DNA of 64,000 nt. Source: an uncultured Candidatus Binatia bacterium (GTDB lineage: Bacteria; Desulfobacterota; Binatia; Bin18). The notes under the pieces are model-generated. The model had not been told where the DNA came from. It worked only from the letters and a program-made list of their open reading frames with translations, and did not search any database. The stretch lies in NCBI GenBank assembly GCA_965204455.1, contig CBDBEO010000004.1:2183485-2247484 (forward strand). The letters run 5' to 3'. The position numbers and the translations under genes are program-made. This document shows positions 6,583-54,599 of this stretch, one piece after another (position 1 is the first letter of the stretch; every line of letters starts with the position of its first letter).

Positions 6583-9500
6583 TTATTCCACGCCGGTGAC
6601 GACGAAGTTCTGCTGCGCCTCCTGCCACTCTACCGTGGTCGTCTGCCCGGCCGCCGGGAAGTCCGCAATGGTGTGCGTCTGGCGCAAGCCGCGCGCGAAC
6701 TCCCCGTCCAGCGTCGTCACCGTCACGGTACTGTGGGCAAACTCGTCCCCGTCGGCCACGGCCCGCACGGTATGGGTGCCGTCGCCCAGCAGGTTCCAGT
6801 TGAACAGCAGCCCAAAGCCATTATCCGTGTCTCCGCAGCGGTCGGCCGTGTCCAGCCGTTCGGTGCCGGAACCCGCCTCGAAGGTCAGGGACTCGTCCGT
6901 ATCGCCCGGCTCGAACACAATCTCGACCGTGTCGGCCTCGCACACCCAGCCGGAAATCACGCCCAGACCGCTCTGAAAGGACCCCGGCGCGGGGTTCTCC
7001 AACCGCGCCTGCTCGGGCGTCAGCTGTTCGCCGCCGTCTCCACCGTCGCCGCTGGCAATGACGAAGTTCTGTAAGGCTTCCGCCCAGCGCAGCGTGGTGG
7101 TTTCCCCCACGTCCGGGAAGTCGGGGATGGTGGTGGTGGCGTGGAGGCCCCGGCGGTACTCCTGCTCGGCGTGGTCGCCGAGGGTGGTGACGGTGATCTG
7201 CCGCTCGGCAAACACCACGTCAGCAATCCGCACCCGCACGGTATGCGCCCCGTCGCCGAGCAGGTTCCAGTTGAACAGCAGGCCGAAGCCGGTGTCGGTG
7301 GTCTCCGCGCCACACACCCCGGCGGTGTCGGCCCGGGCCGTGCCGGTGGCCGGGACCACCAGGTGCGGCTCGCCGTTTTCCGGGACCAGCTCCATCTCGA
7401 CCGTGGCGGTCGCGCACACCCAGCCGGACAGCACGCCCAGGCCGCTCTGGGGCGCATTCGGGGCGGGGTTATCGACAAAGGCCGGGGTGTAGTCCACGCC
7501 CAGGCGGTAGTCGCCGAAGCTGGTCCCGGCCGACACGGACAGGTAGTAGGTGCCGGGTTCGACGGCTACGCCCAGCCGGAACGGGCCGCTCGCGGTGTCT
7601 GCGGCCACCAGGGCGGGCGCGCCGTCGGTTTGGGCCTGGTACAGCCGCCCGGTGGTGTCGGGGCCGGTGGTGTGGGCGAGGAGCACGCCGGCGTGGGGAA
7701 TCTCGATGGCAAAGGTGTCCACGTCGGTAAAGCTCTGGAGGCGGGCGTCGAGCCGGCGGCGGAGATAGCCGGTGGTGTAGCGCCGGGGATTGAGGGAGGT
7801 CGCCTCGTCCAGGGTGTCGCCGTGCTGGTCGGGCGCACGGCGGGCGCCGCCGCCCCCGCCGCCCCTGCCGCCCGTGGTGGGGGGCCGTGGCGGCGTGGCC
7901 GTGCGCTCGGGCAGGGTGCCTTCGTAGTACAACCGGGGGCTGGTGGGGTGGTCGGTGGTCCGCACCAGGAAGGCGATGATCGCACCAGGGGTCGGGCCGC
8001 TGACGGTGGCCATGGTGCCGGTGACTGACGCGGAGGCCCATCTGCCGGCACGATACCACGCGGTATAGCCGCTGGGGGCGGGGTCGGCGGGTTGTGGTTC
8101 CCACGTGGCGGTGAACCCGGTGGAGTGGGACCGGATGTGCAGCTTGTCCACCAGGGTTGGGACGGTGCAGTCGGTGGTGCCCGCCTCGCCGTCCGCATCA
8201 CCGTACAGACATATCGCCGTGCCGTCGCCGGGGGCGATCAGGATCAGGCTGGCATCATCTGCCATGGTGGCGGGATAGCCGTACAGGTCGGGGTTGCCAT
8301 ACAGGGAGAGATACTCCAGCTCTGTTAGGGTGTCCCGAGCAAGCGAAGCGGGAATCGGCCCGACCAGGTCGTTGTTGTGGAGATAGAGGCGGTGCAGCTT
8401 GGTGGGCAGGGTGGTGGGAATCGCCCCGGTCAGGGCGTTGTCCTGGAGTTCGAGTTCTCGCAGGGCGGTCAGGCTGCTGAGGTCGGGAATCGGCCCGTTC
8501 AGTTGGTTGTGGTTGAGTTGGAGGCGTTGCAGGGTCGCAGCGGGCAGCTTGGCAGCCAGCCCATCGAGCGGGGCTGTAATCTGCTGCCCGTCCGTATCCA
8601 GGCCGAGTTGGTTGGCGTGGAGTCGGAGATTTTGCAGCTTGGTCAGGGCGCTGAGGTTGGGAATCGGCCCGTTCAGTTGGTTGTGGTCGAGACCGAGATG
8701 TAGCAGGAGGGTCAGGGCGCTGAGGTCGGGAATCTCCCCGCTGAGTTGGTTGTGGTCGAGATAGAGGACTCGCAGGTTGGTCTGGCTGATGAGGTCGGTG
8801 GGAATCTCCCCGCTGAGTTGGTTGTGGTCGAGATAGAGGTAGCCCAGGCCGGCGGGCAGGGCGAGGACTCGTGGGCTGTCCGGGTCGGTCGGGTCGGTCA
8901 GCTTGGTGGGAATCTCCCCGCTGAGTTGGTTGGTGCCGAGATAGATGTTTTGCAGGCTGGTCAGGCTGCTGAGGTCGGGAATCTCCCCGCTGAGTTGGTT
9001 GCGGTCGAGATGGAGGTTGCTCAGGCCGGCGGGCAGGGCGGGGACTCGTGGGCTGTTCGGGTCGGTCGGGTCGGTCAGCTTGGTGGGAATCGGCCCGTCA
9101 AGGTCGTTGTCGCTGAGATGGAGGCTGATCAGGCTGGTCAGGCTGCTGAGGTCGGGAATCGGTCCGCGGAGTTGGTTTTTGTCGAGAGAGAGGTGGGCCA
9201 GGGTCGCAGCGGGCAGCTTGGCAGCCAGCCCATCAAGCGGGGTTGCAATCCGCTGCCCGTTCGTAGCCAGGCCGAGTTGGGTGTCGTCGAGATTGAGGTG
9301 AGTCAGGCTGGTCAGGCTGCTGAGGTCGGGAATCGGTCCGCGGAGTTGGTTGGTGTAGAGATAGAGTTCTTGCAGGCTGGTCAGGGCGCTGAGGTCGGGA
9401 ATCGTCCCGCTGAGTTGGTTTTTGTGGAGAAAGAGGCGTTGCAGGTTGGTCAGGTTGCCCAAGGTGGCGGGAATCGTCCCGCTGAGTTGGTTGTTGTCGA

Positions 9501-9828
9501 GCCGGAGGCGTTGCAGGCTGGTCAGGGCGCTGAGGTCGGGAATCGTCCCGCTGAGTTGGTTTCTTCTGAGATTGACGCTTGTCACTCGCCTGCTGCCGGT
9601 ATCGACGGTGACGCCATGCAAGGTCCCCAGGTCGGTAGTGGTGTCGATGGCGTCCCAGCCCGTGCTGGTTGTCCAGTTGGCGCCATCGGTGGCCTCGTAG
9701 AGCGCTTTTAACGCTGCTCTGTCGTTCTCATTGACGCTGGACTGCGCCTGCGTGCTGGGGACGGCCAGGAGCAGCAGGCTGAGCGCGCCCAGCAGGGCGA
9801 CGGGGGTGACCCACAACCGCCGCCTCAT
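6583..9828 (-). CDS. large secreted leucine-rich-repeat protein (plant-specific-type LRRs) with two C-terminal copies of an unassigned ~140-aa domain
   Basis: Signal peptide MRRRLWVTPVALLGALSLLLLAVPSTQA, start chosen at 9828 after a GGAGGG RBS. About 20 repeats of L..L..L.L..NQLSG.IPDLS. C-terminal duplicated domain ...SGWVC...GFGLLFNWNLLGDG.HTVR.... Confidence 0.8.
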   Translation of the reverse strand: MRRRLWVTPVALLGALSLLLLAVPSTQAQSSVNENDRAALKALYEATDGANWTTSTGWDAIDTTTDLGTLHGVTVDTGSRRVTSVNLRRNQLSGTIPDLSALTSLQRLRLDNNQLSGTIPATLGNLTNLQRLFLHKNQLSGTIPDLSALTSLQELYLYTNQLRGPIPDLSSLTSLTHLNLDDTQLGLATNGQRIATPLDGLAAKLPAATLAHLSLDKNQLRGPIPDLSSLTSLISLHLSDNDLDGPIPTKLTDPTDPNSPRVPALPAGLSNLHLDRNQLSGEIPDLSSLTSLQNIYLGTNQLSGEIPTKLTDPTDPDSPRVLALPAGLGYLYLDHNQLSGEIPTDLISQTNLRVLYLDHNQLSGEIPDLSALTLLLHLGLDHNQLNGPIPNLSALTKLQNLRLHANQLGLDTDGQQITAPLDGLAAKLPAATLQRLQLNHNQLNGPIPDLSSLTALRELELQDNALTGAIPTTLPTKLHRLYLHNNDLVGPIPASLARDTLTELEYLSLYGNPDLYGYPATMADDASLILIAPGDGTAICLYGDADGEAGTTDCTVPTLVDKLHIRSHSTGFTATWEPQPADPAPSGYTAWYRAGRWASASVTGTMATVSGPTPGAIIAFLVRTTDHPTSPRLYYEGTLPERTATPPRPPTTGGRGGGGGGARRAPDQHGDTLDEATSLNPRRYTTGYLRRRLDARLQSFTDVDTFAIEIPHAGVLLAHTTGPDTTGRLYQAQTDGAPALVAADTASGPFRLGVAVEPGTYYLSVSAGTSFGDYRLGVDYTPAFVDNPAPNAPQSGLGVLSGWVCATATVEMELVPENGEPHLVVPATGTARADTAGVCGAETTDTGFGLLFNWNLLGDGAHTVRVRIADVVFAERQITVTTLGDHAEQEYRRGLHATTTIPDFPDVGETTTLRWAEALQNFVIASGDGGDGGEQLTPEQARLENPAPGSFQSGLGVISGWVCEADTVEIVFEPGDTDESLTFEAGSGTERLDTADRCGDTDNGFGLLFNWNLLGDGTHTVRAVADGDEFAHSTVTVTTLDGEFARGLRQTHTIADFPAAGQTTTVEWQEAQQNFVVTGVE
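8300..9600. repeat. intragenic near-identical ~72-bp tandem repeats encoding LRR units
   Basis: Recurrent ggtcgggaatcggcccgttcagttggttgtggt-type units. These produce many long plus-strand shadow ORFs. Confidence 0.7.
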
Positions 9829-9842
9829 CGCCAGCCCTCCAA

Positions 9843-9865
9843 GCGGAAAGCGGAAAGCGGAAAGC
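9843..9865. repeat. tandem heptamer GCGGAAA x3 (plus partial) immediately upstream of the LRR gene RBS
   Basis: gcggaaagcggaaagcggaaagc, 3 nt from the CCCTCC (minus-strand GGAGGG) RBS and ~15 nt from the ATG at 9828. Confidence 0.6.
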
Positions 9866-10197
9866 ATCTTATCCCTACTTTTCAATCTCACGAGCCCACC
9901 GGAGTATATACTAGCAGTTTTACGAGTTCTACCTCCGTAATCTGGTAAAACTATGAGGGACTCTGCCTCCCCCGGCGAGCAGGGCGGCGGCGGGGCTCAG
10001 GACAGGCCCTTTGGCTTTGCTCAGGACCAACGGTCTCCCGTTCGTGCTGAGCGGAGCGAAGTCGAAGCATGGATGCCGGATCACGGCATGACAAACGCGG
10101 AACAGCAGGACTACAGCCTAACGTGGAACGCGCTGGGGTGGCGGGGATGACCCTGCCTATGATCGCCGGATGCCCGGTCCGCTGCTAGACTACGCGG

Positions 10198-43854: not shown

Positions 43855-45120
43855 GTGCACTACGAACTCTTCATCAGTTTTCGCTATCTGCGCGCCAAGC
43901 GGCGTGAGATTTTCATTTCCCTGATTACCACAATATCTACTCTTGGAGTCTTGATCGGGGTGATGGTGCTGAATGTCACCCTGGCCATCATGACCGGATT
44001 TGAAGAAGATTTGCGGAGTCGGATTCTGGGCTTTAATCCGCATATCCTGCTGTCCAGCCTGAATGGCCCCTTGGACGCCTATGAGCAGGTGGCGGAACAG
44101 GTCCGACAGGTACCGGGGATCGCCGCGGCCGCGCCCTTTCTGTACGGCCAGGTGATGGTCAGCTCGCCACGGGGCGTGTCCGGGGTGGTGGTGCGCGGGG
44201 TCGAACCGGCCCTGGCCAGTGCGGTGGTCAATATCGCCGACCACATCAAAGAGGGGAGTCTCGCCCGGCTCGGCCAAAAGCAGCTCGTGCATCTTGGGAA
44301 TGGTACGGGCCAGCGCAGCGTTGAGCTGGCAGGGATTGTGATCGGTGAGGAGTTGGCCGACCAGCTCGGTCTGCTGATCGGTGATCCCATCACCCTGATC
44401 TCTCCCCTTGGCGGGACGCCGGGACCGCTCGGCATGGCGCCTCGCCTCAAACGTTTCGTGGTGGTCGGACTGTTTGATTCCGGCATGGTCGAGTATGACA
44501 GTGGCCTGCTCTACATGGCTCTCCAGGATGCCCAGCAGTTCTTCAAGCTTGACCGACAGGTGTCCGGGCTCGAAATTCGGCTCCAGGAAGTCTACAACGC
44601 GCAGCCGATTGCCCGGCAGATCGAGGAACTGCTCGGCTTTCCCTACAAAGCCCGCGACTGGACCGAAATCAACCGCAACCTGTTTACGGCCCTGAGCCTT
44701 GAAAAGTTCGTGTATTCGATCGTGATTTTGCTCATCGTCCTGGTGGCCGCGTTCAACATCGTTGCGACCCTGATCATGGTTGTCATGGAAAAACGCAAGG
44801 ACATTGCACTGCTGAAATCCATGGGCGCTTCGGATGCGGCAATCGGCCGGATTTTTATCTACAAAGGGCTGGTTATCGGGCTGGTCGGCACGCTCCTGGG
44901 GACGCTGAGCGGTTTCGTCCTGTGCTGGTTGCTCCAGCGCTACGAGTTCATCGAACTGCCACCCGACGTGTGGTACGTTTCGACCGTGCCGATCAAGATG
45001 TCGGTCCACAATTTCCTGATCGTTGGCCTGGCCTCTGTCGCGATCTGCCTGGGCGCCACGATCTATCCCGCCCGTCAGGCGGCCCGTTTGGCGCCGGTTG
45101 AGGTCATCCGCTACGAATGA
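43855..45120 (+). CDS. lolC: lipoprotein-releasing ABC transporter permease (LolC/LolE, FtsX-like)
   Basis: FISFRYLRAKRRE...MTGFEEDLR.. and C-terminal 4-TM FtsX domain. Confidence 0.85.
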   Translation: MHYELFISFRYLRAKRREIFISLITTISTLGVLIGVMVLNVTLAIMTGFEEDLRSRILGFNPHILLSSLNGPLDAYEQVAEQVRQVPGIAAAAPFLYGQVMVSSPRGVSGVVVRGVEPALASAVVNIADHIKEGSLARLGQKQLVHLGNGTGQRSVELAGIVIGEELADQLGLLIGDPITLISPLGGTPGPLGMAPRLKRFVVVGLFDSGMVEYDSGLLYMALQDAQQFFKLDRQVSGLEIRLQEVYNAQPIARQIEELLGFPYKARDWTEINRNLFTALSLEKFVYSIVILLIVLVAAFNIVATLIMVVMEKRKDIALLKSMGASDAAIGRIFIYKGLVIGLVGTLLGTLSGFVLCWLLQRYEFIELPPDVWYVSTVPIKMSVHNFLIVGLASVAICLGATIYPARQAARLAPVEVIRYE

Positions 45121-45890
45121 ATGGTGACCGGCCTGAGCACCAGACGGAGAGGAGCGGTGGCGTGGCGCAGATTTTGATTCGAGCCGAGCGGCTCAGCAAA
45201 TGCTACGGCGAGGAAGGGCAGGCGATCCAGGTCTTCTCGGAGTTGGACCTCGACATCCGGCGGGCTGAGCGCATTGCTATCATTGGTGAGTCCGGGGTTG
45301 GCAAAACGACCTTGCTGCATATCCTGGGGACGCTTGATCGGCCCAGCGCAGGCAAGGTGTGGCTGGCTGGCCACGACGTGTTTGCCCTGCCGAGCGAGGA
45401 GCTGGCCGGGCTGCGCAACCGGGAAATCGGGTTCATTTTCCAGTTCCACCACTTGTTGCCCGATTTCAACGCTGTTGAGAACGTCATGCTGCCCGGACTG
45501 ATCGCCCGGCTGTCGCGCGCTGAGGCCAAGCGGCGGGCGGTCGAGATTCTGGAGCAGGTCGGGCTCACAGATCGACTGACCCATCGCCCTGGAGAACTGT
45601 CCGGGGGCGAACAGCAACGGGTTGCCGTGGCGCGGGCGCTGGTGCTGCGTCCGCGTGTGGTGCTGGCTGACGAGCCGACGGGCAATCTTGACCCTGGGAC
45701 AGGGGAGGGCGTGCTGCAGTTGCTGCTCAAGCTCAATCAGGCCATGAACATTACCATGGTGGTTGTGACCCATAACGACAAAGTGGCCACCAGCATGGAT
45801 CGGACGCTGCGGCTCGAGGCGGGTCGGCTGCATGAACTCCAGGCTCGGGCGGAGACAGACGCGGTCCCGGCCGGCTCTCGACTGGGCTGA
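45117..45890 (+). CDS. lolD: lipoprotein-releasing ABC transporter ATP-binding protein LolD
   Basis: Walker A GESGVGKTT, signature LSGGEQQRVAVARAL, Walker B VVLADEPTGNLD. Confidence 0.9.
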   Translation: MNGDRPEHQTERSGGVAQILIRAERLSKCYGEEGQAIQVFSELDLDIRRAERIAIIGESGVGKTTLLHILGTLDRPSAGKVWLAGHDVFALPSEELAGLRNREIGFIFQFHHLLPDFNAVENVMLPGLIARLSRAEAKRRAVEILEQVGLTDRLTHRPGELSGGEQQRVAVARALVLRPRVVLADEPTGNLDPGTGEGVLQLLLKLNQAMNITMVVVTHNDKVATSMDRTLRLEAGRLHELQARAETDAVPAGSRLG

Positions 45891-45930
45891 ATGGCTTTAC
45901 AATCTGAGGGGATTTTGTTAGGGGGGGCCG

Positions 45931-48474
45931 ATGGGGAAAGGCGCGTCAATGCGGGGAATATCTCGAACAACCGGCACCCGATGGCTGATCTTGGTCCTCG
46001 GCTTGGTTCTGTCCGGTCTACCCGGTCAGGTACGGGGACAGACTCCGGTGCCGACCCAGGCGTCCGACCCGGCTGAGGCTTCGGCACCGATCAACCCTCC
46101 TCAAGCGACGCTGCTGAGCGAGGTGGTGGTCGGCGGCAACGAGCAGGTCGACCCTGAGGCTATTCGTATCCGTCTCTCATCCCGGGCTGGCCAGCCGCTC
46201 GATCATGAGACGGTTGATGCCGATATTCGATCCATCTACGAGATGGGTTTCTTCAAGAATGTCGAGGCGCGGCTGACCGAGGACGACGGCCGCAGCGTGC
46301 TGACCTACTGGGTGCGCGAACGCCCGCTGATCCGGCAGGTGCGGGTTGAGGGGAATGAGAAAGTCACCCAGGAAGAGATTCTGACCGAGCTGAAAATTCA
46401 TCCGCGCACCATTCTGAATCCGGTCAGAATCCGTCGCGGGATTCTTGACACCAAGGCCCTGTACGAGAAAAAAGGCCACCTGGATACGGATATCTCATAC
46501 CGGACCGAATCGACACCCAACGGCGAAACGATCGTCTCTTTTACGATTTCCGAAAACACCCAAACGAGCGTGGTCGACGTGGTGTTTGAGGGCAATCAAG
46601 CCTTTTCCGACAAGATCCTGGCCGGCTTCATGCAGACGAAGAGGAAGAACTGGCTGTCCCGTTTTCTGCCGTTCGGGGTGCTGAGCAATGAAGCCCTCAA
46701 GACCGATGTCGAACGCCTGACGGCCTGGTACTACGATAATGGCTATATCAACGTCCGGATTGATGAGCCGCAGGTGACCCGTGGCGAAGACGGCCTGGTG
46801 GTGACCATCCGTCTTGAGGAGGGACCCAAGTATAAGGTCGGTGAAGTGCGGGTCGTGGGCGATGTGGTGGGCGGTGAGGCTGCGGCAAAACGGGTCTTGA
46901 CCCTGCGCTCAAAGCGGACCTTCAAGGCCAGCGTGCTGCGGGACGACGTCTTCAACCTGACCGGCTATTTCAGTGACCAGGGCTACGCGTTCGTCAATAT
47001 CGAGCCGGAAACCGATGTCCAGCCCGACGAGAAGCTGGTGAACGTCTCATACCGGGTGAATAAAGGCCCCGAGGTCTACATCGACCAGATCGCTATTGCC
47101 GGCAACCGCAAAACGCGGGACAAGGTCATTCGGCGTGAGCTGTCGATCGTTGAGCAAAGTCTGTTCGCCGCCTCGTCACTCCAGTTCAGCCGAGACCAGG
47201 TCAAACGCCTGGGGCTGTTTGAAGACGTGAATCTGACCACCCAGCGGGGTAAGCGCAAAGATCTCCTGAACGTGCTGGTCGATGTCAAGGAAGCCCAGAC
47301 CGGCTCGTTCAGCATCGGCGCCGGCTTCAACTCGTCAACCAGCGTGGTCGGCAATGCCCGGATTCAGGAAAACAACCTCATGGGTCGGGGCCAGCGTCTG
47401 ATTGTCGGGGGCAGCATCGGCACCCGCTATCGGAATACCCAGGTCAATTTCATGGACCCCTACTTCATGGATACCTACCTGCGGCTCGGGCTGGAGCTGT
47501 TTGACTGGCGGTTCATCTTTGAGGACTTTGACCGCTCGGGAACCGGCGGTGGCTTTCGGCTGTTCTATCCGCTGACCGCCCTGGGCTATCGTTCGCTGTG
47601 GGGCTACTCCTTGACCGATGTCGAGGTTGGTTTTCAGTACCAGTGGGAACGCTCACGGATCAGCAACTTCGACCCGATTACGCCGGACGCGGTCCGCGCC
47701 GAACGGGGAGCGAACACGGCCTCCCTGATCTCGCCGGTGCTCATGCGGAATACCCTGAACCACGCGTTCGAGCCTACGGCCGGCTCGCTGCAGCAGGTCT
47801 CCTTCACCTTTGCCGGACCCGGTGGGAATGCCGATTACACCAAGCTTGAGCTTGAGGCGCGCTACTTTCTGCCCATCTGGCGCGGCCGTCGCTTTGGCGA
47901 GGTGACCCTGATGACCGGTGGCGTTTTTGGCTATGGCATAGGCGATGTCGATTTTACCGAGAATCGCCATATTGCGACCCACCGTAAGCGTATCCTCAAG
48001 GATGACGTGCCCCTGTTTGATCGTTACTTCCCGGGTGGTATCAACTCGATCCGGGGCTTTGGCGAGCGCAGCCTCGGTCCTCGTGAAGAAACGGTGGTCG
48101 TGGTCACTGATGGTGACTCGCCGGATGGGCGAAAAGCGCGCACCTACCGTCGTCCCATCGGGGGTAGCCACCAGCTGATTATTAACAATGAAATCATCGT
48201 TCCGATTGTCCCGGCTCTCAACCTCAAGGGCGTGCTGTTTAACGACATCGGCAATGCGTTTACCAATGTCCAAGGCATCGATCTTGGAGATCTCCGCTAT
48301 TCCGTGGGAGCGGGAGTCCGCTGGAAATCGCCATTTGGTCCGATCCGCATTGAGTTGGGCAGACCGCTGAATGCCAAGAATGATGAGCGCACCAGCAGCA
48401 TTCACTTTTCCTTCGGTGGTTTTGGCGGGATCGGCCAGACCGGTGGCGCCAACCGTTTCGATTCGCTGTTCTAG
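45931..48474 (+). CDS. bamA: outer membrane protein assembly factor BamA
   Basis: Signal peptide, POTRA repeats, and C-terminal Omp85 barrel ending ...GGFGGIGQTGGANRFDSLF. Confidence 0.9.
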   Translation: MGKGASMRGISRTTGTRWLILVLGLVLSGLPGQVRGQTPVPTQASDPAEASAPINPPQATLLSEVVVGGNEQVDPEAIRIRLSSRAGQPLDHETVDADIRSIYEMGFFKNVEARLTEDDGRSVLTYWVRERPLIRQVRVEGNEKVTQEEILTELKIHPRTILNPVRIRRGILDTKALYEKKGHLDTDISYRTESTPNGETIVSFTISENTQTSVVDVVFEGNQAFSDKILAGFMQTKRKNWLSRFLPFGVLSNEALKTDVERLTAWYYDNGYINVRIDEPQVTRGEDGLVVTIRLEEGPKYKVGEVRVVGDVVGGEAAAKRVLTLRSKRTFKASVLRDDVFNLTGYFSDQGYAFVNIEPETDVQPDEKLVNVSYRVNKGPEVYIDQIAIAGNRKTRDKVIRRELSIVEQSLFAASSLQFSRDQVKRLGLFEDVNLTTQRGKRKDLLNVLVDVKEAQTGSFSIGAGFNSSTSVVGNARIQENNLMGRGQRLIVGGSIGTRYRNTQVNFMDPYFMDTYLRLGLELFDWRFIFEDFDRSGTGGGFRLFYPLTALGYRSLWGYSLTDVEVGFQYQWERSRISNFDPITPDAVRAERGANTASLISPVLMRNTLNHAFEPTAGSLQQVSFTFAGPGGNADYTKLELEARYFLPIWRGRRFGEVTLMTGGVFGYGIGDVDFTENRHIATHRKRILKDDVPLFDRYFPGGINSIRGFGERSLGPREETVVVVTDGDSPDGRKARTYRRPIGGSHQLIINNEIIVPIVPALNLKGVLFNDIGNAFTNVQGIDLGDLRYSVGAGVRWKSPFGPIRIELGRPLNAKNDERTSSIHFSFGGFGGIGQTGGANRFDSLF

Positions 48475-48508
48475 GCCTGGTGCTGCGAGCGGACGGTGGA
48501 GAACAGCT

Positions 48509-49054
48509 ATGCGTCGTATTGCTAGTGGAGTCCTGCTCAGCGTCCTCGGCCTGGTGTGGCTGTCCGTTCCGGTCGCCGCCCAGGGGGTGAAGATTGGCTA
48601 TGTCGATCTCCAGCTGGCGCTCACCGAGTCGAGCGCCGGCCAGAGGGCCAAGCAGGCGTTCAGCGCCGAAATGAACCGCATGGAAACCCAGCTCCAGGAA
48701 CGCAAGAAAAAGGTCGAGACGCTCAAGGACGACCTGGAGAAGAAGGCCCAGCTACTGAGATCCGAGGAGCGGACCGAGCTGGCCCGTCAGTATCGGGTCG
48801 AAATCCGTGAATTTCAGCGTCTGCACGAGGACTCCAAAAAGGAACTCGAAATACGAGACCGCGAGCTGACCGGCCACATTCTGGTTGAGTTGCACCACAT
48901 CATCCACGACCTGGGCCAGCAGGGCGACTTCACGCTGATCCTGGAAGGCAACAACACGGTCGTCTTGTACGGCGCCCAAACCATCGACCTGACCCAAGCG
49001 GTGATTGCCGCCTACAACAAGAGAGGAACGAAGATTGCGCAGCCGATACGCTAG
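48509..49054 (+). CDS. skp: OmpH/Skp periplasmic chaperone
   Basis: Signal peptide. KIGYVDLQLALTES... and coiled-coil Skp pattern. Located directly after bamA. Confidence 0.8.
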   Translation: MRRIASGVLLSVLGLVWLSVPVAAQGVKIGYVDLQLALTESSAGQRAKQAFSAEMNRMETQLQERKKKVETLKDDLEKKAQLLRSEERTELARQYRVEIREFQRLHEDSKKELEIRDRELTGHILVELHHIIHDLGQQGDFTLILEGNNTVVLYGAQTIDLTQAVIAAYNKRGTKIAQPIR

Positions 49055-49084
49055 CGTGCGTCTCGGACTCCGCTGCCTGCCGGT

Positions 49085-49558
49085 ATGGATACCCTTGCGG
49101 CCCTGCTGCCCCACCGTTACCCTTTCCTGCTCGTTGACCGAGTCGTGGAGATCGTCGCTGCCGAACGGATTGTGGCGCTCAAAAACGTGACCATCAACGA
49201 ACCTTTCTTCCCCGGCCATTTTCCCGGCTATCCGGTCATGCCCGGCGTCCTGCTGTGTGAGGCTGTTGTCCAGGCCGGAGGCATTCTCGTCTGTTCGTCC
49301 GCGCCGGAAGGGGGTCGCCGTCCCCAGTACGCGCTGCTGACGGCGCTGGACAAGGTCCGCTTTCGGCGCCAAGTCACTCCAGGTGATCAGCTCCGCCTGG
49401 AGGCCGAGACCGTCCACCGGCGAAAGAAATTCTGGAAGATGCGTGGCACCGCCTCGGTGGCCGGTGCGCTGGCGGCTGAACTGGAATTTACGCTTGCCGA
49501 GACGGACCCGCCCGACAGCCGCAGGCCAGACACGCGGACGGATGGGGAGCGCTCATGA
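49085..49558 (+). CDS. fabZ: 3-hydroxyacyl-ACP dehydratase FabZ
   Basis: [15 protein letters not shown]...[23 protein letters not shown] canonical FabZ motifs. Confidence 0.9.
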
Positions 49559-50382
49559 CGGCAGCCCCCCACATCCATCCCTCGGCAGTCGTCGCACCGG
49601 GCGCCGAACTCGACAGCGGAGTCCGGGTCGGGCCGTATACGGTCATTGGGCCGCATGTTCGGATCGGACGAGAAACCCAGGTCGGTCCCCACGCCGTCAT
49701 TGAGGGGCGGACCACAATCGGGCGGCACAACCATATTTTTCAGTTTGCCAGCGTCGGCGCGGTTCCCCAGGACAAAAAGTACGCCGGCGAAGACAGCCAG
49801 TTGATTATTGGCGATCACAATACCGTTCGGGAGTTTGCCACCCTCCAGCCCGGCACCACGGGAGGCGGCATGATCACCCGGGTCGGTGACCATAATCTGT
49901 TCATGGTCTACTCGCACGTCGCCCACGATTGCGCGCTGGGCAGCCATATTGTCATGGCCAACAGCGCCAACCTGGGCGGCCATGTCACGATCGAAGACTT
50001 TGCGGTGATCGGCGCGCTGGCCGGTATCCATCAATTCGCCCGGATCGGCGAATCCGCGATCATTGGCGCGGGAGCCATGGTTTCTCTCGATGTCCCGCCG
50101 TACTGTATGGCCCAGGGCGACCGGGCCTACCTGTTCGGCCTGAATCTGATCGGGCTCAAACGGCGCGGTTTTACGACCGCCCAGCTCGAAACCCTGAAAA
50201 AAGCCTATCGAGCCTTGTTCAGCGAGGGCGAACCGTTCAAGCAGGCTCTGGCCCGCGTCAGTCGGGAATACGGCGACGGTCCCGAGGTCGTCCACCTCGT
50301 GGAGTTTATCTCGCGCTCTCAGCGCGGTGTGTGTCGGCCCCGGAGTGGGGCGTCTGCCGACGCCGATGGGGCCGCCGGCTAG
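49555..50382 (+). CDS. lpxA: acyl-ACP--UDP-N-acetylglucosamine O-acyltransferase LpxA
   Basis: Left-handed beta-helix hexapeptide repeats. IHPSAVVAPGAELDSGVRVGPYTVIG. Confidence 0.9.
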   Translation: MTAAPHIHPSAVVAPGAELDSGVRVGPYTVIGPHVRIGRETQVGPHAVIEGRTTIGRHNHIFQFASVGAVPQDKKYAGEDSQLIIGDHNTVREFATLQPGTTGGGMITRVGDHNLFMVYSHVAHDCALGSHIVMANSANLGGHVTIEDFAVIGALAGIHQFARIGESAIIGAGAMVSLDVPPYCMAQGDRAYLFGLNLIGLKRRGFTTAQLETLKKAYRALFSEGEPFKQALARVSREYGDGPEVVHLVEFISRSQRGVCRPRSGASADADGAAG

Positions 50383-50416
50383 AGTCCGACGGACTCACCC
50401 ACAGATTGTAGACAGG

Positions 50417-51268
50417 ATGTCTCGATTCGGGCTGATCGCCGGCAACGGCCGCTTCCCCCTGCTCTTTGTTGAGGCGGCCCGCGCCCAGGGGCTCGACCTT
50501 GTGGCGGTCGCCCACCACGGCGAGACCCTGGAGACGCTGAACGATCTGGTGTCCGAGGTCAGCTGGGTTCGGGTTGGCGAGCTGGGCAAGATCATCGACA
50601 TCTTCAAGACCGCCGGCGTGACACAGGCCGTTATGGCCGGTGGGATCCACAAATCCGGCGCCCTGAGCCATATTCAGCCCGACGCGCGCGGTCTGGCGTT
50701 TATCAGTCGGCTGCCGAGTCTGAAGGATGATGTGATCTTGCGCGGCATTGCCCAAGAGCTGGAAGGCGAGGGTATCCGGGTGGTCGAGTCCACCCGTTTG
50801 CTGCCCGACCTGGTTCCCCAGCCGGGGGTGTTCACCCGGGCCGCTCCGGATGAGCGGCAGTGGCAGGACATCCGGCTGGGGGTTGAGGTGGCCAAGGAAA
50901 TCGGACGCTGGGATATTGGTCAGAGTGTGGTGGTCAAGCGCGGCACGGTGTTTGCCGTTGAGGGCTTGGAGGGCACAAATGCCGCGATCCGGCGCGGCGG
51001 AGAACTGGCCGGGTCTGGGCTGGTCATTGTCAAGGTCAGCAAGCCGCACCAAGACCTGCGCTTCGACGTGCCAACGGTTGGACCGGAGACGATTGAAGAG
51101 ATGCGGGCCGTTGAGGCGCGTGTGCTCGCCGTCGAAGCCGAGAAAACCCTGATGGTGGATAAGCCTGCGGTCGTTCGACAGGCTGATGCCGCCGGGCTGT
51201 GCGTGGTGGCCGTCTCAGTCACGAAAACGGAGACGGGTTTTCGGGTGTCGCAAGAACAGCGGGAGTAA
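50417..51268 (+). CDS. lpxI: UDP-2,3-diacylglucosamine hydrolase LpxI (DUF1009)
   Basis: MSRFGLIAGNGRFPLLF...DIGQSVVVKRGTVFAVEGLEGTNAAIRRGGELA...KVSKPHQDLRFDVPTVG LpxI pattern. The ORF caller used an upstream GTG. The displayed line 50401 has only 59 bases, so coordinates may be off by 1 in 50401-50460. Confidence 0.75.
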   Translation: MSRFGLIAGNGRFPLLFVEAARAQGLDLVAVAHHGETLETLNDLVSEVSWVRVGELGKIIDIFKTAGVTQAVMAGGIHKSGALSHIQPDARGLAFISRLPSLKDDVILRGIAQELEGEGIRVVESTRLLPDLVPQPGVFTRAAPDERQWQDIRLGVEVAKEIGRWDIGQSVVVKRGTVFAVEGLEGTNAAIRRGGELAGSGLVIVKVSKPHQDLRFDVPTVGPETIEEMRAVEARVLAVEAEKTLMVDKPAVVRQADAAGLCVVAVSVTKTETGFRVSQEQRE

Positions 51269-51284: not shown

Positions 51285-54200
51285 ATGGGTATGAAACAGC
51301 TAGTGTGGAGAAGTATTGGGGCATTGTTCTGGAGCGGGCTACTGTGCCTTGTGCCTGCCAGCAGCCTGGCCGATATCAAATTTGCCCTTGAAAACCCGGC
51401 ACCGGGCCAGGTTCTCAGCGGCATACGCGTGATATCGGGCTGGGCGTTTTCGACCGAGTCTGCTGAGCCGGTCAGCGTCCGCGTATGGATCGATGACGGT
51501 GAGGCCATTGAGGTACCGTGCTGTGTCGAGCGGGCCGATGTCGCAAACGGGCATCCCGATTATCCCCAAGCCCTTGCCAGTGGATTCGGCCAGGTCTTTA
51601 ACGCCGGCCTGCTCGAAAAAGGCGCCCATACCCTGACGATTGAAATTGAGGATGCGACCGGCGCGCGCGAGACACGAGCGCAGAGGATTGAAACCGTCAG
51701 ACCCGGTGGGTTTGAGTTTCTCGGCGCGCTCGATCTGGACCGGGCCGACGCCGAACTGAGCGAAGACAAACAAGAAATTGTGATCACCAGAGTGATCGTC
51801 CGGGAGAAAGGCAGCACCGAGTCCGAGGAGATCGAACTCCGTCTGGCCTGGCAGGAGAACCTCCAGGCGCTGGGCATTGTCGCCGCGCGCAACGAGAACG
51901 AAGAAAGCGCGTCTATGGCCGCTGCCCTCAGTGCCAGTCTTGAGGCTGCCGAGATGAGTGCCGAGGACCCGGTTGTGGAGCCCGTGCAGGTGAGTGCCGA
52001 GGAGTTGGCTGTAGAGCCCGACTGGGTGCGGAACCCGGCCATCATTCGGATTGATCCGAATAGCGGCAATCGAACCATTCTGTCCGACGTGCACACCCCG
52101 ACCAGAGCAGACCTGAGCGGTGCCGAGACCGAAGGCGACCAGACGCTGACCGATCCGGGGCCGACCTGGCTCATCCCCCAAGGGCTCACGATTGAGCCGG
52201 ACGGCCAGATTGCGGTGACCGATGCCGGCCGCGAAGCGCTGATCCGGGTCGATCCTGTCACGGGCCGGCGTCAAGCCTTCGCCGGCTCCGGGCCAAGCCT
52301 GGTCCGGCCGAACGGGGTTGCTGCCTATCCCCAGGAATCGGGCTTGGACCGAACGCTTGTGATTGCAGACTCCGGCCGCTCGGGTGTCCTTGAACTGAAC
52401 GGCAGCCGGACGATCATCTCGAACAGAGAGTTTGAGGACGAGCCCGAACAGGTGACCCTCCAGGACCCGTTTGGTATCGCGGTTGAGAACAACTGCACGG
52501 AGGATGACTGCCGGGTCGTGGTGTCCGATGCCGGCCTGCGGGCGATTGTTCGCCTCGATCGGGGGACCGAAGAGCGCCGCATTATCTCTGGACCGGAAGT
52601 CGGTAGCGGACCTGAACTACGGGTACCGGTTGACATTGATGTTGCGTCCGACGGCCAGCTGTTTGTTGTCGATGTCGGCCTCAACGCTATCGTGCGGGTC
52701 AATCCGACAAACGGGAGCCGGGCGATTGTGTCGGGCGCGGGGACCGGCGGCGGTCCCGATTTCCAGCGGGTCCGAGCCCTGGCGATTGAGTCGGACGGCC
52801 AGCTGGCTGTCGTGGATGAGGGCGCCCGGACTGTGCTCCGCGTCGATCCACGCAGCGGTGAGCGCCGCATTATTTCCGGGCCGGAGACCGGCGGCGGCCC
52901 TGAACTGCGGGTGCCGGTTGATATCGCCGTCGGCTCTAACGGCCAGTTGATTGTCGTTGATAGCGCGCCTTTTTCGGCCGCCTTTGAAAACCCGTTTGGA
53001 GATTTTATCGGCGGGATCGGTCTGGTGTCGGGCTGGGTCTTTCCCAACGTGTCCGCCGCCACTTTGAACAGTGTTGTGCTCACGATTGACGACAACGAGC
53101 CCATACAGATGCCGTGGGGTGCTTCGCGCGGGGATGTCCAGGCGTCTTTTCCTGAGCGGCCGTGGGCGGCGGAGAGTGGGTTCGGACTCGTCACCAACTT
53201 CAATATCTTGCCCAGCGGTTCACATACCTTTGCGCTGACGGTCGAGGATACGAGCGGGAGTTCTCACACCCTGCGCCGCAGCGTGGAGACCGTGAGACTG
53301 GACGATTCGGAGTTTCTGGACCAGTTCGATATGACGAACGCCGAAGTTGACATATTTGATGACACGGTATCCATCGAGCAGGTGCAGGTCCGGGATAAAG
53401 CCAGCCAGCGCAGTCGCAAGATCAACGCCAGCTTTGTCTGGCGGGAGAGCTGCCAGTGTTTTGTCGTGCAGGGCGAATGCGGTAATGGGAATATCGAATC
53501 CAACGAAGAGTGTGACGGTCAGACCTTCGGTGGACAAACGTGCCAGAGCCTGGGCTTTGACGCTGGAGACCTGAGCTGTACTGAGCAGTGTAATCTGGAC
53601 CTGGAGGAATGCACGGGGGGCATGCCGGTCCTGGTCGCCAATAGCGGAGACGACAGCGTTTCCGTGGTGAGTGCCGCGACCCATGAAGAGGTCGGCACTA
53701 TACCGGTCGGCGACAATCCCCGCAGCATAGCCGTCAGCCCGACCCAAACGCTTGCGTATGTGACCAACTTTGGCGACGGGACTGTGTCGGTCCTCGATCT
53801 CAGCGACCTCGCCGCCCTCACCGACCCCGCCTCCGACCTCCCAACGATTGACGTTGGCCATGCGCCTGTCGGTGTGGCCTTCAGGCCGGATGGGCAGTAC
53901 GCCTATGTGGTCAACGCGGGCCAGAATCGGGTCAGTGTGATCAATACGGACTCACAGACCGTTGAGACACACATACGGGTCGGGAGCGAACCGCAAGAGA
54001 TCGCCATCAATGCCGCCGGCACGCGGGCGTATGTCACCAACTCCGGGGACGGAACGGTCTCGGTCATTGATCTGGCGACAAACAAGCAGCTGACCACGGT
54101 CGCCGTCGGCGAGGATCCCAACGGGGTTGCGGTCCGCCCCGGCGATAGCCAAGTGTATGTCGTGAACTCGGAACAGGACGATAACACCGTGTCGATTATT

Positions 54201-54599
54201 GACACGCATACGAACCGCGTGGTGGCGACGCTGACCCGAGAAGAAGACGAGGGCCGTATCGGACTCGTGCCGCAGAAGGTCACGTTTTCTCCCGATGGCC
54301 GCAGGGCTTTTGTGACCAACTCACTCGACGATACGGTGTCGATCATTGATGCCGCAACACGGGCCAATCTGGATACGCCCTATGTCAGGCGATATCGCTA
54401 CCGCACGGTGTATGACCAGCCGAACGGGATTCTGGTCACTCCCAACGGACTGCGCTTTTACGTCTCGTTGTTTGGCCGGAGTGGACAGGGTGACTATCTC
54501 GCCGTTTTCAGCGTGAAGAACGACCACCCCCGGTACGGGCTGATCGACTTCATCGAGGTCGGAGAGGGGCCGGTCGGCCTGGCGGGTGGGCCGGGTTAG
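51285..54599 (+). CDS. large secreted multi-repeat surface protein: two copies of the SGW.../GFG domain shared with the LRR protein, RVDP..G.R..ISG repeats, a Myxococcus-type Cys-rich repeat and C-terminal YVTN beta-propeller repeats
   Basis: Signal peptide MGMKQLVWRSIGALFWSGLLCLVPASSLA. Cys-rich repeat CGNGNIESNEECDG..C..C. YVTN units AYVTNFGDGTVSVLDL, AYVVNAGQNRVSVIN, AYVTNSGDGTVSVIDL, VYVVNSEQDDNTVSIID and AFVTNSLDDTVSIID. Confidence 0.8.
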   Translation: MGMKQLVWRSIGALFWSGLLCLVPASSLADIKFALENPAPGQVLSGIRVISGWAFSTESAEPVSVRVWIDDGEAIEVPCCVERADVANGHPDYPQALASGFGQVFNAGLLEKGAHTLTIEIEDATGARETRAQRIETVRPGGFEFLGALDLDRADAELSEDKQEIVITRVIVREKGSTESEEIELRLAWQENLQALGIVAARNENEESASMAAALSASLEAAEMSAEDPVVEPVQVSAEELAVEPDWVRNPAIIRIDPNSGNRTILSDVHTPTRADLSGAETEGDQTLTDPGPTWLIPQGLTIEPDGQIAVTDAGREALIRVDPVTGRRQAFAGSGPSLVRPNGVAAYPQESGLDRTLVIADSGRSGVLELNGSRTIISNREFEDEPEQVTLQDPFGIAVENNCTEDDCRVVVSDAGLRAIVRLDRGTEERRIISGPEVGSGPELRVPVDIDVASDGQLFVVDVGLNAIVRVNPTNGSRAIVSGAGTGGGPDFQRVRALAIESDGQLAVVDEGARTVLRVDPRSGERRIISGPETGGGPELRVPVDIAVGSNGQLIVVDSAPFSAAFENPFGDFIGGIGLVSGWVFPNVSAATLNSVVLTIDDNEPIQMPWGASRGDVQASFPERPWAAESGFGLVTNFNILPSGSHTFALTVEDTSGSSHTLRRSVETVRLDDSEFLDQFDMTNAEVDIFDDTVSIEQVQVRDKASQRSRKINASFVWRESCQCFVVQGECGNGNIESNEECDGQTFGGQTCQSLGFDAGDLSCTEQCNLDLEECTGGMPVLVANSGDDSVSVVSAATHEEVGTIPVGDNPRSIAVSPTQTLAYVTNFGDGTVSVLDLSDLAALTDPASDLPTIDVGHAPVGVAFRPDGQYAYVVNAGQNRVSVINTDSQTVETHIRVGSEPQEIAINAAGTRAYVTNSGDGTVSVIDLATNKQLTTVAVGEDPNGVAVRPGDSQVYVVNSEQDDNTVSIIDTHTNRVVATLTREEDEGRIGLVPQKVTFSPDGRRAFVTNSLDDTVSIIDAATRANLDTPYVRRYRYRTVYDQPNGILVTPNGLRFYVSLFGRSGQGDYLAVFSVKNDHPRYGLIDFIEVGEGPVGLAGGPG

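What the first reader, a model, noticed from the sequence alone, without database searches (positions are those of the whole stretch)
6586..7470. Unassigned ~140-aa domain present twice in the LRR protein and twice in the YVTN protein 45 kb away
The two C-terminal units of the LRR protein are NPAPNAPQSGLGVLSGWVC...GFGLLFNWNLLGDGAHTVR... and NPAPGSFQSGLGVISGWVC...GFGLLFNWNLLGDGTHTVR.... They share an ENP.PG..SGI..(I/V)SGW ... SGFG ... G.HT core with two units in the 51285..54599 protein (nt ~51390-51815 and ~52983-53405). I cannot assign this domain to a known family. It links two large secreted surface proteins as modular paralogues, and it may be a carbohydrate- or adhesion-binding module.
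Basis: seen in the sequence. Interest (0 to 1): 0.55.

Follow-up and report, generated by a model that had tools for sequence, protein, structure and literature searches.

The report
Unnamed Ig-like tandem module of Binatia
The repeated 140–170-residue unit is real: it is an immunoglobulin-like fold with an extra beta-strand tail that no curated family library names, it nearly always comes in pairs, and Binatia bacteria (some of them from sponges) attach it to dozens of different exported, adhesion-type proteins, but what it binds is still unknown.

Summary
The LRR protein (6583-9891, minus strand) ends in two units, and the YVTN protein (51285-54599, plus strand) carries two more. Cross-protein BLASTP E-values run from 6e-10 to 7e-5, and the window holds no fifth copy.

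The family is large: 5,738 clusters at 50% identity. It has a short type (as in the LRR protein) and a long type (as in the YVTN protein). The short type is heavily expanded in Candidatus Binatia genomes, with at least 11-13 genes in each of two assemblies. Units come in pairs, directly after the signal peptide or at the extreme C-terminus. The pairs are joined to unrelated partner domains such as LRR, fn3, cadherin, SRCR, YWTD and beta-propellers. The units are very acidic and nearly lysine-free.

My best inference is a shared surface-attachment or assembly handle (confidence 0.35). Glycan or host binding is not excluded. I rate it a new variant of a known kind, of moderate interest.

The parts
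6583..9891 (-). LRR protein CDS (1102 aa as listed; probable true start M22 at nt 9828). Order of parts: signal peptide, leucine-rich repeats, fn3-like and Gly/Pro-rich linker, PPC-like region, two short-type units.
   Evidence: ORF. Pfam LRR_4, LRR_1 and LRR_8, E 2.6e-33 to 5e-17. Hydrophobic N-terminus. The homologue in L002 carries LRR plus a weak fn3 match.
7012..7485 (-). Short-type unit 1 of the LRR protein (aa 803-960, including the linker to unit 2).
   Evidence: Alignment and profile hits. Part of the tandem AlphaFold2 model, pLDDT 90.9, pTM 0.83.
6586..7011 (-). Short-type unit 2 of the LRR protein (aa 961-1102, ending at the C-terminus).
7528..7725 (-). PPC-like (pre-peptidase C-terminal) region just upstream of the tandem pair. 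Weak match only.
   Evidence: Pfam PF04151, E 0.069, 14.5 bits, below the cut-off. Several relatives show the same '...G.Y.L...' ending directly before the first ENP motif.
51285..54599 (+). YVTN protein CDS (1104 aa). Order of parts: signal peptide, long-type unit 1, NHL/SGL-type beta-propeller, long-type unit 2, Cys-rich acidic repeat, YVTN beta-propeller.
   Evidence: ORF. TIGR02276 YVTN repeat E 7e-50. Pfam Lactonase, YNCE, SGL and NHL. The start matches relative P0098.
51378..51899 (+). Long-type unit 1 of the YVTN protein (aa 32-205), directly after the signal peptide.
   Evidence: 42% identical at E 4e-40 to P0291, whose equivalent N-terminal half passes Pfam Big_7.
52974..53489 (+). 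Long-type unit 2 of the YVTN protein (aa 564-735).
   Evidence: BLASTP against LRR_u2 gives 29% identity over 170 columns, E 1e-8.
53472..53609 (+). Cys-rich acidic repeat (CGNG..EECD..) between unit 2 and the YVTN propeller. Neighbouring element, not part of the unit.
   Evidence: TIGR02232 myxo_disulf_rpt, E 0.11. The same element sits at the same place in P0333.

Best explanation
Each unit is one exported, disulfide-containing, strongly acidic domain. It consists of a Big_7-related Ig-like beta-sandwich of about 85-95 residues plus a three-strand C-terminal extension. Two units in tandem form a conserved module. Binatia bacteria, and a few other lineages for the long type, fuse this module to many unrelated extracellular 'passenger' domains.

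I infer that the pair acts as a common handle. It would attach or assemble these variable adhesion-type proteins on one shared partner at the cell surface, such as an outer-membrane or LPS/polysaccharide component, a scaffold protein, or other copies of itself. SLH triplets, CWB2 triplets and dockerins play this role for other bacterial surface-protein repertoires.

Shown: homology, fold, pairing, terminal position, export signals, paralogue expansion, and the contrast between conserved module and variable passenger. Inferred: the attachment or assembly role and the identity of the partner.
For: - Family size: 5,738 clusters at 50% identity with E<=1e-3, and 1,760 with E<=1e-30. Among the best 150, 147 carry exactly two units.
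- Pairing and position: in 78 genome loci, 81 of 94 unit-bearing ORFs have exactly two units, with a median 12-residue spacer. The pair lies either right after a signal peptide ('VWA/QATLENP') or ends the protein.
- Variable partners: fn3, LRR, LDL-receptor YWTD, Calx-beta, SRCR, cadherin, FGE-sulfatase, GDSL lipase, beta-helix and beta-propellers.
- Conserved module, unrelated passengers: in one 4.8-Mb Binatia chromosome, 11 paralogues share the tandem at a mean 62% identity in all 55 pairs, while 0 of 55 passenger pairs align over >=70% of their length. In a second genome, 13 paralogues share it at 74%.
- Equivalent units: the two units of one protein are more alike (73%) than same-position units of different proteins (64%), so they have not specialised by position.
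- Defined pair geometry: the tandem model has pTM 0.83.
- One evolutionary piece: 301 full units against 3 Ig-only copies among the representatives.
- Extracytoplasmic character: the Cys pair GWVC...CGD is invariant in the short type.
- Not a drifting spacer: net charge is about -14 per unit and lysine is 0.2% against 1.6% in passengers.
Against: - No partner has been identified, and no conserved neighbouring gene was found in 78 loci.
- Small proteins that are only a signal peptide plus a tandem pair exist (for example L050 and L079). That fits an intrinsic binding role at least as well as an anchor.
- Fold neighbours are generic Ig-like modules and give no functional lead.
- Model coordinates and PAE were not available, so no binding surface or inter-unit interface could be examined.
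- In the window's YVTN protein a propeller separates the two units, so direct adjacency is not obligatory.
Confidence: 0.35

Rival explanations
1. The tandem is itself a ligand-binding module. It would be a lectin- or CBM-like or adhesive domain that recognises a host or environmental glycan or matrix component, and the passenger domains would add further specificities.
For: - Polar residues are conserved across both subtypes (R52, D54, N71, H80, Q134).
- Stand-alone proteins of signal peptide plus tandem exist.
- At least one genome with many copies appears, by MAG name, to be a sponge symbiont (JAJDZM01 jk18x40bins.50).
- Duplicated binding domains are common in lectins.
Against: - The mannanase Ig-like modules are, to my knowledge, linkers and not proven binders.
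- There is no match to any CBM or lectin family in Pfam or NCBIfam.
- The partner domains (LRR, cadherin, SRCR, fn3) are themselves the usual binding modules, so a constant extra binder on every protein is less economical.
- The long type also occurs in Competibacteraceae and Deltaproteobacteria MAGs that carry no sign of host association.
Confidence: 0.25
2. The units are inert structural spacers or stalk elements, ordinary Ig-like domains that merely project or stabilise the functional domains.
For: Ig-like fold. The nearest structures include spacer modules of enzymes and adhesins: Fn3-like CbhA modules, filamin rods, and Lap and SiiE adhesin repeats.
Against: - Spacers usually vary in copy number and diverge freely. 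Here the number is fixed at two.
- The position is terminal rather than between domains.
- Sequence identity among paralogues is 62-74% while everything else differs.
- The composition is unusual: lysine-free and very acidic.
Confidence: 0.15
3. The pair is a recognition domain for a dedicated export or sorting pathway, analogous to T9SS C-terminal domains. It would be recognised by a machinery and possibly removed or modified.
For: - About two thirds of the pairs end the protein.
- The module is shared by a large cargo repertoire.
Against: - About 28% of the pairs are N-terminal, directly after a Sec signal peptide.
- There is no NCBIfam or Pfam sorting-signal match.
- No sorting-machinery gene is conserved next to the loci.
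- The similarity to T9SS CTDs is at generic Ig level, and T9SS is, to my knowledge, confined to Bacteroidota and relatives.
Confidence: 0.1

Closest known systems
Pfam PF17957 Big_7 (bacterial Ig domain, E-set clan)
   Same: The N-terminal ~85-95 residues have the same Ig-like sandwich. The long-type relative P0291 scores 34.3 bits against a cut-off of 24.1 over exactly this part. 13 of 49 long-type relatives touch Big_7 at E<=1.
   Different: None of the four window units, and none of 35 family members scanned, reaches Big_7 even at E<=10. Big_7 has 70 positions. The unit here has 139-172 positions with a conserved C-terminal three-strand extension (W-x-E/Q-x-x-Q-N-F), an N-terminal ENP motif and, in the short type, an invariant Cys pair.
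Ig-like modules of GH5/GH26 endo-mannanases (PDB 6tn6, 2bvt)
   Different: Only 15% identity. They cover only the Ig part. They are single internal modules of enzymes, not terminal tandem pairs. No sequence relationship is detectable.
Sulfite oxidase/dehydrogenase dimerisation domain and filamin repeats (E-set)
   Different: Different context and no sequence similarity. They give no evidence that the units here dimerise.
Surface-anchoring repeat modules: SLH triplets, Clostridioides CWB2 triplets, dockerins (functional analogy from general knowledge, not tested)
   Same: A fixed small number of tandem conserved repeats sits at either terminus of many paralogous exported proteins whose remaining domains differ.
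   Different: Unrelated folds and sequences. Those systems are best known in monoderm or atypical envelopes and have known ligands. Here the organism has BamA and Lpx genes, which indicates a diderm envelope, and no ligand is known.

Membership tests
Pfam Big_7 (PF17957) | HMM score at or above the gathering cut-off (24.1 bits) | tested here: not met
   No Big_7 hit for the window proteins, for the four isolated Ig halves at E<=10, or for 35 family members. It is met by the relative P0291/P0334 (34.3 and 28.4 bits), which is 42% identical to YVTN_u1. Superfamily kinship is therefore supported, but formal membership of the window units is not.
Ig-like / E-set beta-sandwich fold | Seven-to-eight-strand Greek-key sandwich superposable on known E-set domains | tested here: met
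Carbohydrate-binding modules (CAZy CBM families) | Sequence membership in a CBM family, or demonstrated glycan binding | tested here: not met
T9SS C-terminal sorting domain (Por_Secre_tail) | Single domain at the extreme C-terminus that matches the TIGR04183-type model, in a T9SS-bearing organism | tested here: not met
Pre-peptidase C-terminal domain (PPC, PF04151) | HMM score at or above the cut-off (25.9 bits) | tested here: not met
   Only 14.5 bits, E 0.069, and at aa 723-788, upstream of the units and not on them.
The undescribed family itself (short type / long type) | Full-length match to the unit profile: ENP start, SGW, R-x-D, GFG-x-x-x-N, G-x-H, terminal W-x-E/Q-x-x-Q | tested here: met
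   All four window units match end to end. These positions are invariant or nearly invariant in 35 sequences. Long and short profiles align at 99.1% probability.

The most novel reading that the evidence does not exclude
The tandem pair is a previously unrecognised cell-surface display or anchoring system of a diderm lineage. Binatia would use one conserved, acidic, lysine-free Ig-plus-extension module to mount a large, fast-changing repertoire of eukaryote-like adhesion domains (LRR, cadherin, SRCR, fn3, YWTD) on a common envelope or lattice partner. This would organise how these symbionts present themselves to the sponge host.
Probability: 0.25. Interest if true: 0.65.

Novelty: new variant of a known kind. 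Interest (0 to 1): 0.42.

Why it matters
A family of more than 5,700 sequence clusters has no curated name, no structure and no function. Source names, where present, are 'hypothetical protein', apart from one 'YVTN family beta-propeller protein' that describes the passenger. Yet it is the one constant part of dozens of exported, eukaryote-like adhesion proteins per genome in Binatia, a phylum reported from marine sponges. Defining it as a domain would improve annotation of these genomes. It would also give a simple handle for cataloguing the surface-protein repertoire, and point to a single experiment, finding the pair's partner, that could show how that repertoire is displayed or what it binds. 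It is not a new fold, and nothing here shows an unusual mechanism.

Tried and rejected
- Pfam and NCBIfam scans of both proteins, of the isolated Ig halves and of 35 plus 49 relatives: no family covers the units except Big_7 in some long-type relatives.
- PDB sequence searches with 4- and 35-sequence profiles: only chance-level hits, E>=0.07.
- Foldseek against PDB: only generic Ig and TCR/Fab hits, TM<=0.46.
- The AFDB50 fold library was not available.
- Exact look-up of the LRR protein: not on record.
- Search for a conserved neighbouring gene (possible partner or sorting machinery) in 78 loci: the large clusters were off-frame shadows of the domain itself or shared passenger repeats, with no consistent neighbour.
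- Test for position-specific divergence of unit 1 against unit 2: none.
- Literature searches on Binatia/Binatota, sponge, eukaryotic-like proteins and leucine-rich repeats: no listed paper's title or abstract concerns this module.
- The nested ~165-aa insert in some relatives: no Pfam hit.
- T9SS-CTD and PPC membership were considered and rejected (see the membership table).

Full report
**1. The observation**

The minus-strand ORF 6583-9891 (1102 aa) and the plus-strand ORF 51285-54599 (1104 aa from the MGMKQLV start) both exist. The first carries leucine-rich repeats (Pfam LRR_4 E 2.6e-33, LRR_1, LRR_8). The second carries YVTN-type beta-propeller repeats (TIGR02276 E 7e-50), plus a second propeller of NHL/SGL type.

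BLASTP between the two proteins gives four local alignments, one for each combination of units (E 6e-10, 1e-8, 2e-8, 7e-5). I place the units as follows:

| Unit | Residues | Window nt |
|---|---|---|
| LRR_u1 | aa 803-960 | 7485-7012 |
| LRR_u2 | aa 961-1102 | 7011-6586 |
| YVTN_u1 | aa 32-205 | 51378-51899 |
| YVTN_u2 | aa 564-735 | 52974-53489 |

Identities are 56% within the LRR protein, 36% within the YVTN protein and 28-32% between the proteins. A profile of the four units finds only these four copies in the six-frame translation of the window.

**2. Is the domain unassigned?**

- No Pfam-A or NCBIfam model covers the units in the window proteins.
- None of 35 family members hits a Pfam family significantly at E<=10.
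- The four Ig halves scanned alone also give nothing.
- Profiles of 4 and of 35 sequences find no PDB chain by sequence (best E 0.07).
- Source names, where they exist, are 'hypothetical protein', apart from one 'YVTN family beta-propeller protein' that describes the passenger.

At family level the domain is therefore undescribed in the libraries available here.

**3. Fold**

Only about 80-105 of the 142 residues ever align. Foldseek finds no whole-unit match (TM<=0.46). The unit is thus an Ig-like (E-set) sandwich followed by a confidently modelled three-strand extension that has no solved counterpart.

**4. Link to a known family**

A second search with long-type units found P0291 (Competibacteraceae). 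It is 42% identical to YVTN_u1 over the full unit (E 4e-40). Its residues 31-116, exactly the Ig part, score 34.3 bits on Pfam Big_7 against a cut-off of 24.1. Its full-length form P0334 scores 28.4 bits. 13 of 49 long-type relatives touch Big_7 at E<=1.

Long and short types are homologous end to end (hhalign 99.1%, E 7.7e-19). By transitivity the Ig half belongs to the Big_7/E-set superfamily. The window units themselves do not meet Big_7's threshold, and the extension is not covered by anything. Among the representatives, 301 units are complete and only 3 are Ig-only, so the composite behaves as one evolutionary unit.

**5. Size, distribution and architecture of the family**

An exhaustive HMMER search of 1.84 billion representative proteins finds 5,738 clusters at E<=1e-3 and 1,760 at E<=1e-30. 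Among the best 150, 147 have exactly two units. The pair ends the protein in about two thirds and follows the N-terminal signal peptide in about 28%. The median spacer is 12 residues.

A scan of one genome per species confirms 280 stretches. The best 80 are almost all in Candidatus Binatia MAGs, with many loci per genome. In those loci, 81 of 94 unit-bearing ORFs carry exactly two units, and two or three such genes are often adjacent.

Partner domains in 55 full-length representatives include fn3, LRR, LDL-receptor YWTD, Calx-beta, SRCR, cadherin, FGE-sulfatase and SWM repeats. Others carry GDSL lipase, a beta-helix-like region or YVTN propellers. About 72% of the representatives have a signal-peptide-like N-terminus.

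One of the Binatia MAGs (jk18x40bins.50) follows the naming used for Caribbean Ircinia sponge MAGs in PMC9531527. Binatota are reported from marine sponges (abstract of PMC9999580). That many of the other MAGs come from sponge or coral projects is my recollection and was not checked. The long type also occurs in Competibacteraceae and Deltaproteobacteria MAGs.

**6. The two window proteins in this frame**

The LRR protein is a canonical short-type member: signal peptide, passenger (LRR, fn3-like, PPC-like) and a C-terminal pair. A close relative on contig L002 has the same build.

The YVTN protein is a long-type member. Its relative P0333 reads signal peptide, unit, unit, Cys-rich repeat, YVTN propeller. 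The window protein looks like that architecture with an NHL/SGL propeller inserted between the two units.

The gene sits directly after lolC/E, lolD, bamA, skp, fabZ, lpxA and lpxI. Two related contigs keep this order.

**7. Clues to function**

- Within one 4.8-Mb Binatia chromosome, 11 paralogues share the tandem at a mean 62% identity in all 55 pairs, while none of the 55 passenger pairs aligns over >=70% of its length. In a second genome, 13 paralogues share it at 74%.
- The two units of one protein are more alike (73%) than same-position units of different proteins (64%). The units are therefore equivalent rather than specialised.
- The short type has an invariant Cys pair (GWVC...CGD). 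The long type mostly has a PCC motif.
- Units carry a net charge of about -14 and 0.2% lysine, against 1.6% in passengers.
- No conserved neighbouring gene was found.

**8. Interpretation**

The pattern is a fixed pair of highly conserved, exported, terminal units on many paralogues whose other domains are unrelated binding modules. That is the pattern of surface-attachment or assembly handles such as SLH or CWB2 triplets and dockerins. This comparison is an analogy from general knowledge, not a test. I commit to that reading at about 0.35.

The rivals are:

- **Intrinsic glycan or host ligand binding (0.25).** This is favoured by the stand-alone signal-peptide-plus-pair proteins and by the polar residues conserved across both subtypes.
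- **Inert spacer (0.15).** This is disfavoured by the conservation, the fixed number, the terminal position and the composition.
- **Sorting signal (0.10).** This is disfavoured by the N-terminal cases and the lack of machinery genes.

None of these can be settled without coordinates or binding data.

**9. Novelty and score**

This is not a new fold and not a new kind of system. It is an undescribed, large, lineage-expanded family built on a Big_7-like Ig core with a distinctive extension and pairing rule, so I class it as a new variant of a known kind.

The 'unassigned' claim is mostly correct. The functional guess is untested. Interest is 0.42. It is useful for annotation and for sponge-symbiont biology, but it carries no demonstrated mechanism.

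Noticed in passing
window 43855-51268 and 51285-54599; L001, L081: The YVTN protein gene lies directly downstream of an outer-membrane biogenesis cluster (FtsX/MacB-type permease, ABC ATPase, BamA/Omp85, OmpH/Skp, FabZ, LpxA, LpxI). Two related metagenome contigs keep the same order. In L081 the C-terminal YVTN propeller appears to be absent.
   Followed up: partly
window 53472-53609 (+): A Cys-rich acidic repeat (CGNGNIESNEECDG...C...C...C) lies between long unit 2 and the YVTN propeller. It resembles the myxococcal cysteine-rich repeat (TIGR02232, E 0.11 only). The same element sits at the same place in P0333.
   Followed up: partly
window 6586-7485 (-), 51378-51899 and 52974-53489 (+); family-wide: The units are almost lysine-free (0 K in both LRR units; family 0.2% against 1.6% in the passenger parts) and very acidic (net -13 to -18 per unit). 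No explanation was tested.
   Followed up: partly
L011, L029, L037, L046 (ORF aa ~1000-1180): In some Binatia paralogues one unit is split by a ~165-residue insertion right after the SGWVC strand (profile positions 24/25). The insert has no Pfam match.
   Followed up: partly
L005-L008 (OY282457.1): Four separate loci of one Binatia chromosome hold genes with the same >1474-aa architecture and the same unit positions. This suggests recent multi-copy duplication of a whole gene.
   Followed up: no
L001, L002 (ERZ25068633 contigs labelled 8x and 2x): Close relatives of both window genes are broken into several short called genes there. The cause is probably frameshifts in low-coverage long-read assemblies. 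This explains why many database 'proteins' of this family start in the middle of a unit.
   Followed up: partly
window 9828-9891 (-): The listed GTG start of the LRR ORF adds 21 residues in front of a canonical signal peptide (MRRRLWVTPVALLGALSLLLLAVPSTQA). The real start is probably the ATG at 9828.
   Followed up: no
window 7528-7725 (-): A PPC-like region (PF04151, E 0.069) lies just before the tandem pair. Several relatives end a similar region ('GAYTLE..L.VG') immediately before the first ENP motif, so PPC-like plus pair may be a recurrent combination.
   Followed up: no
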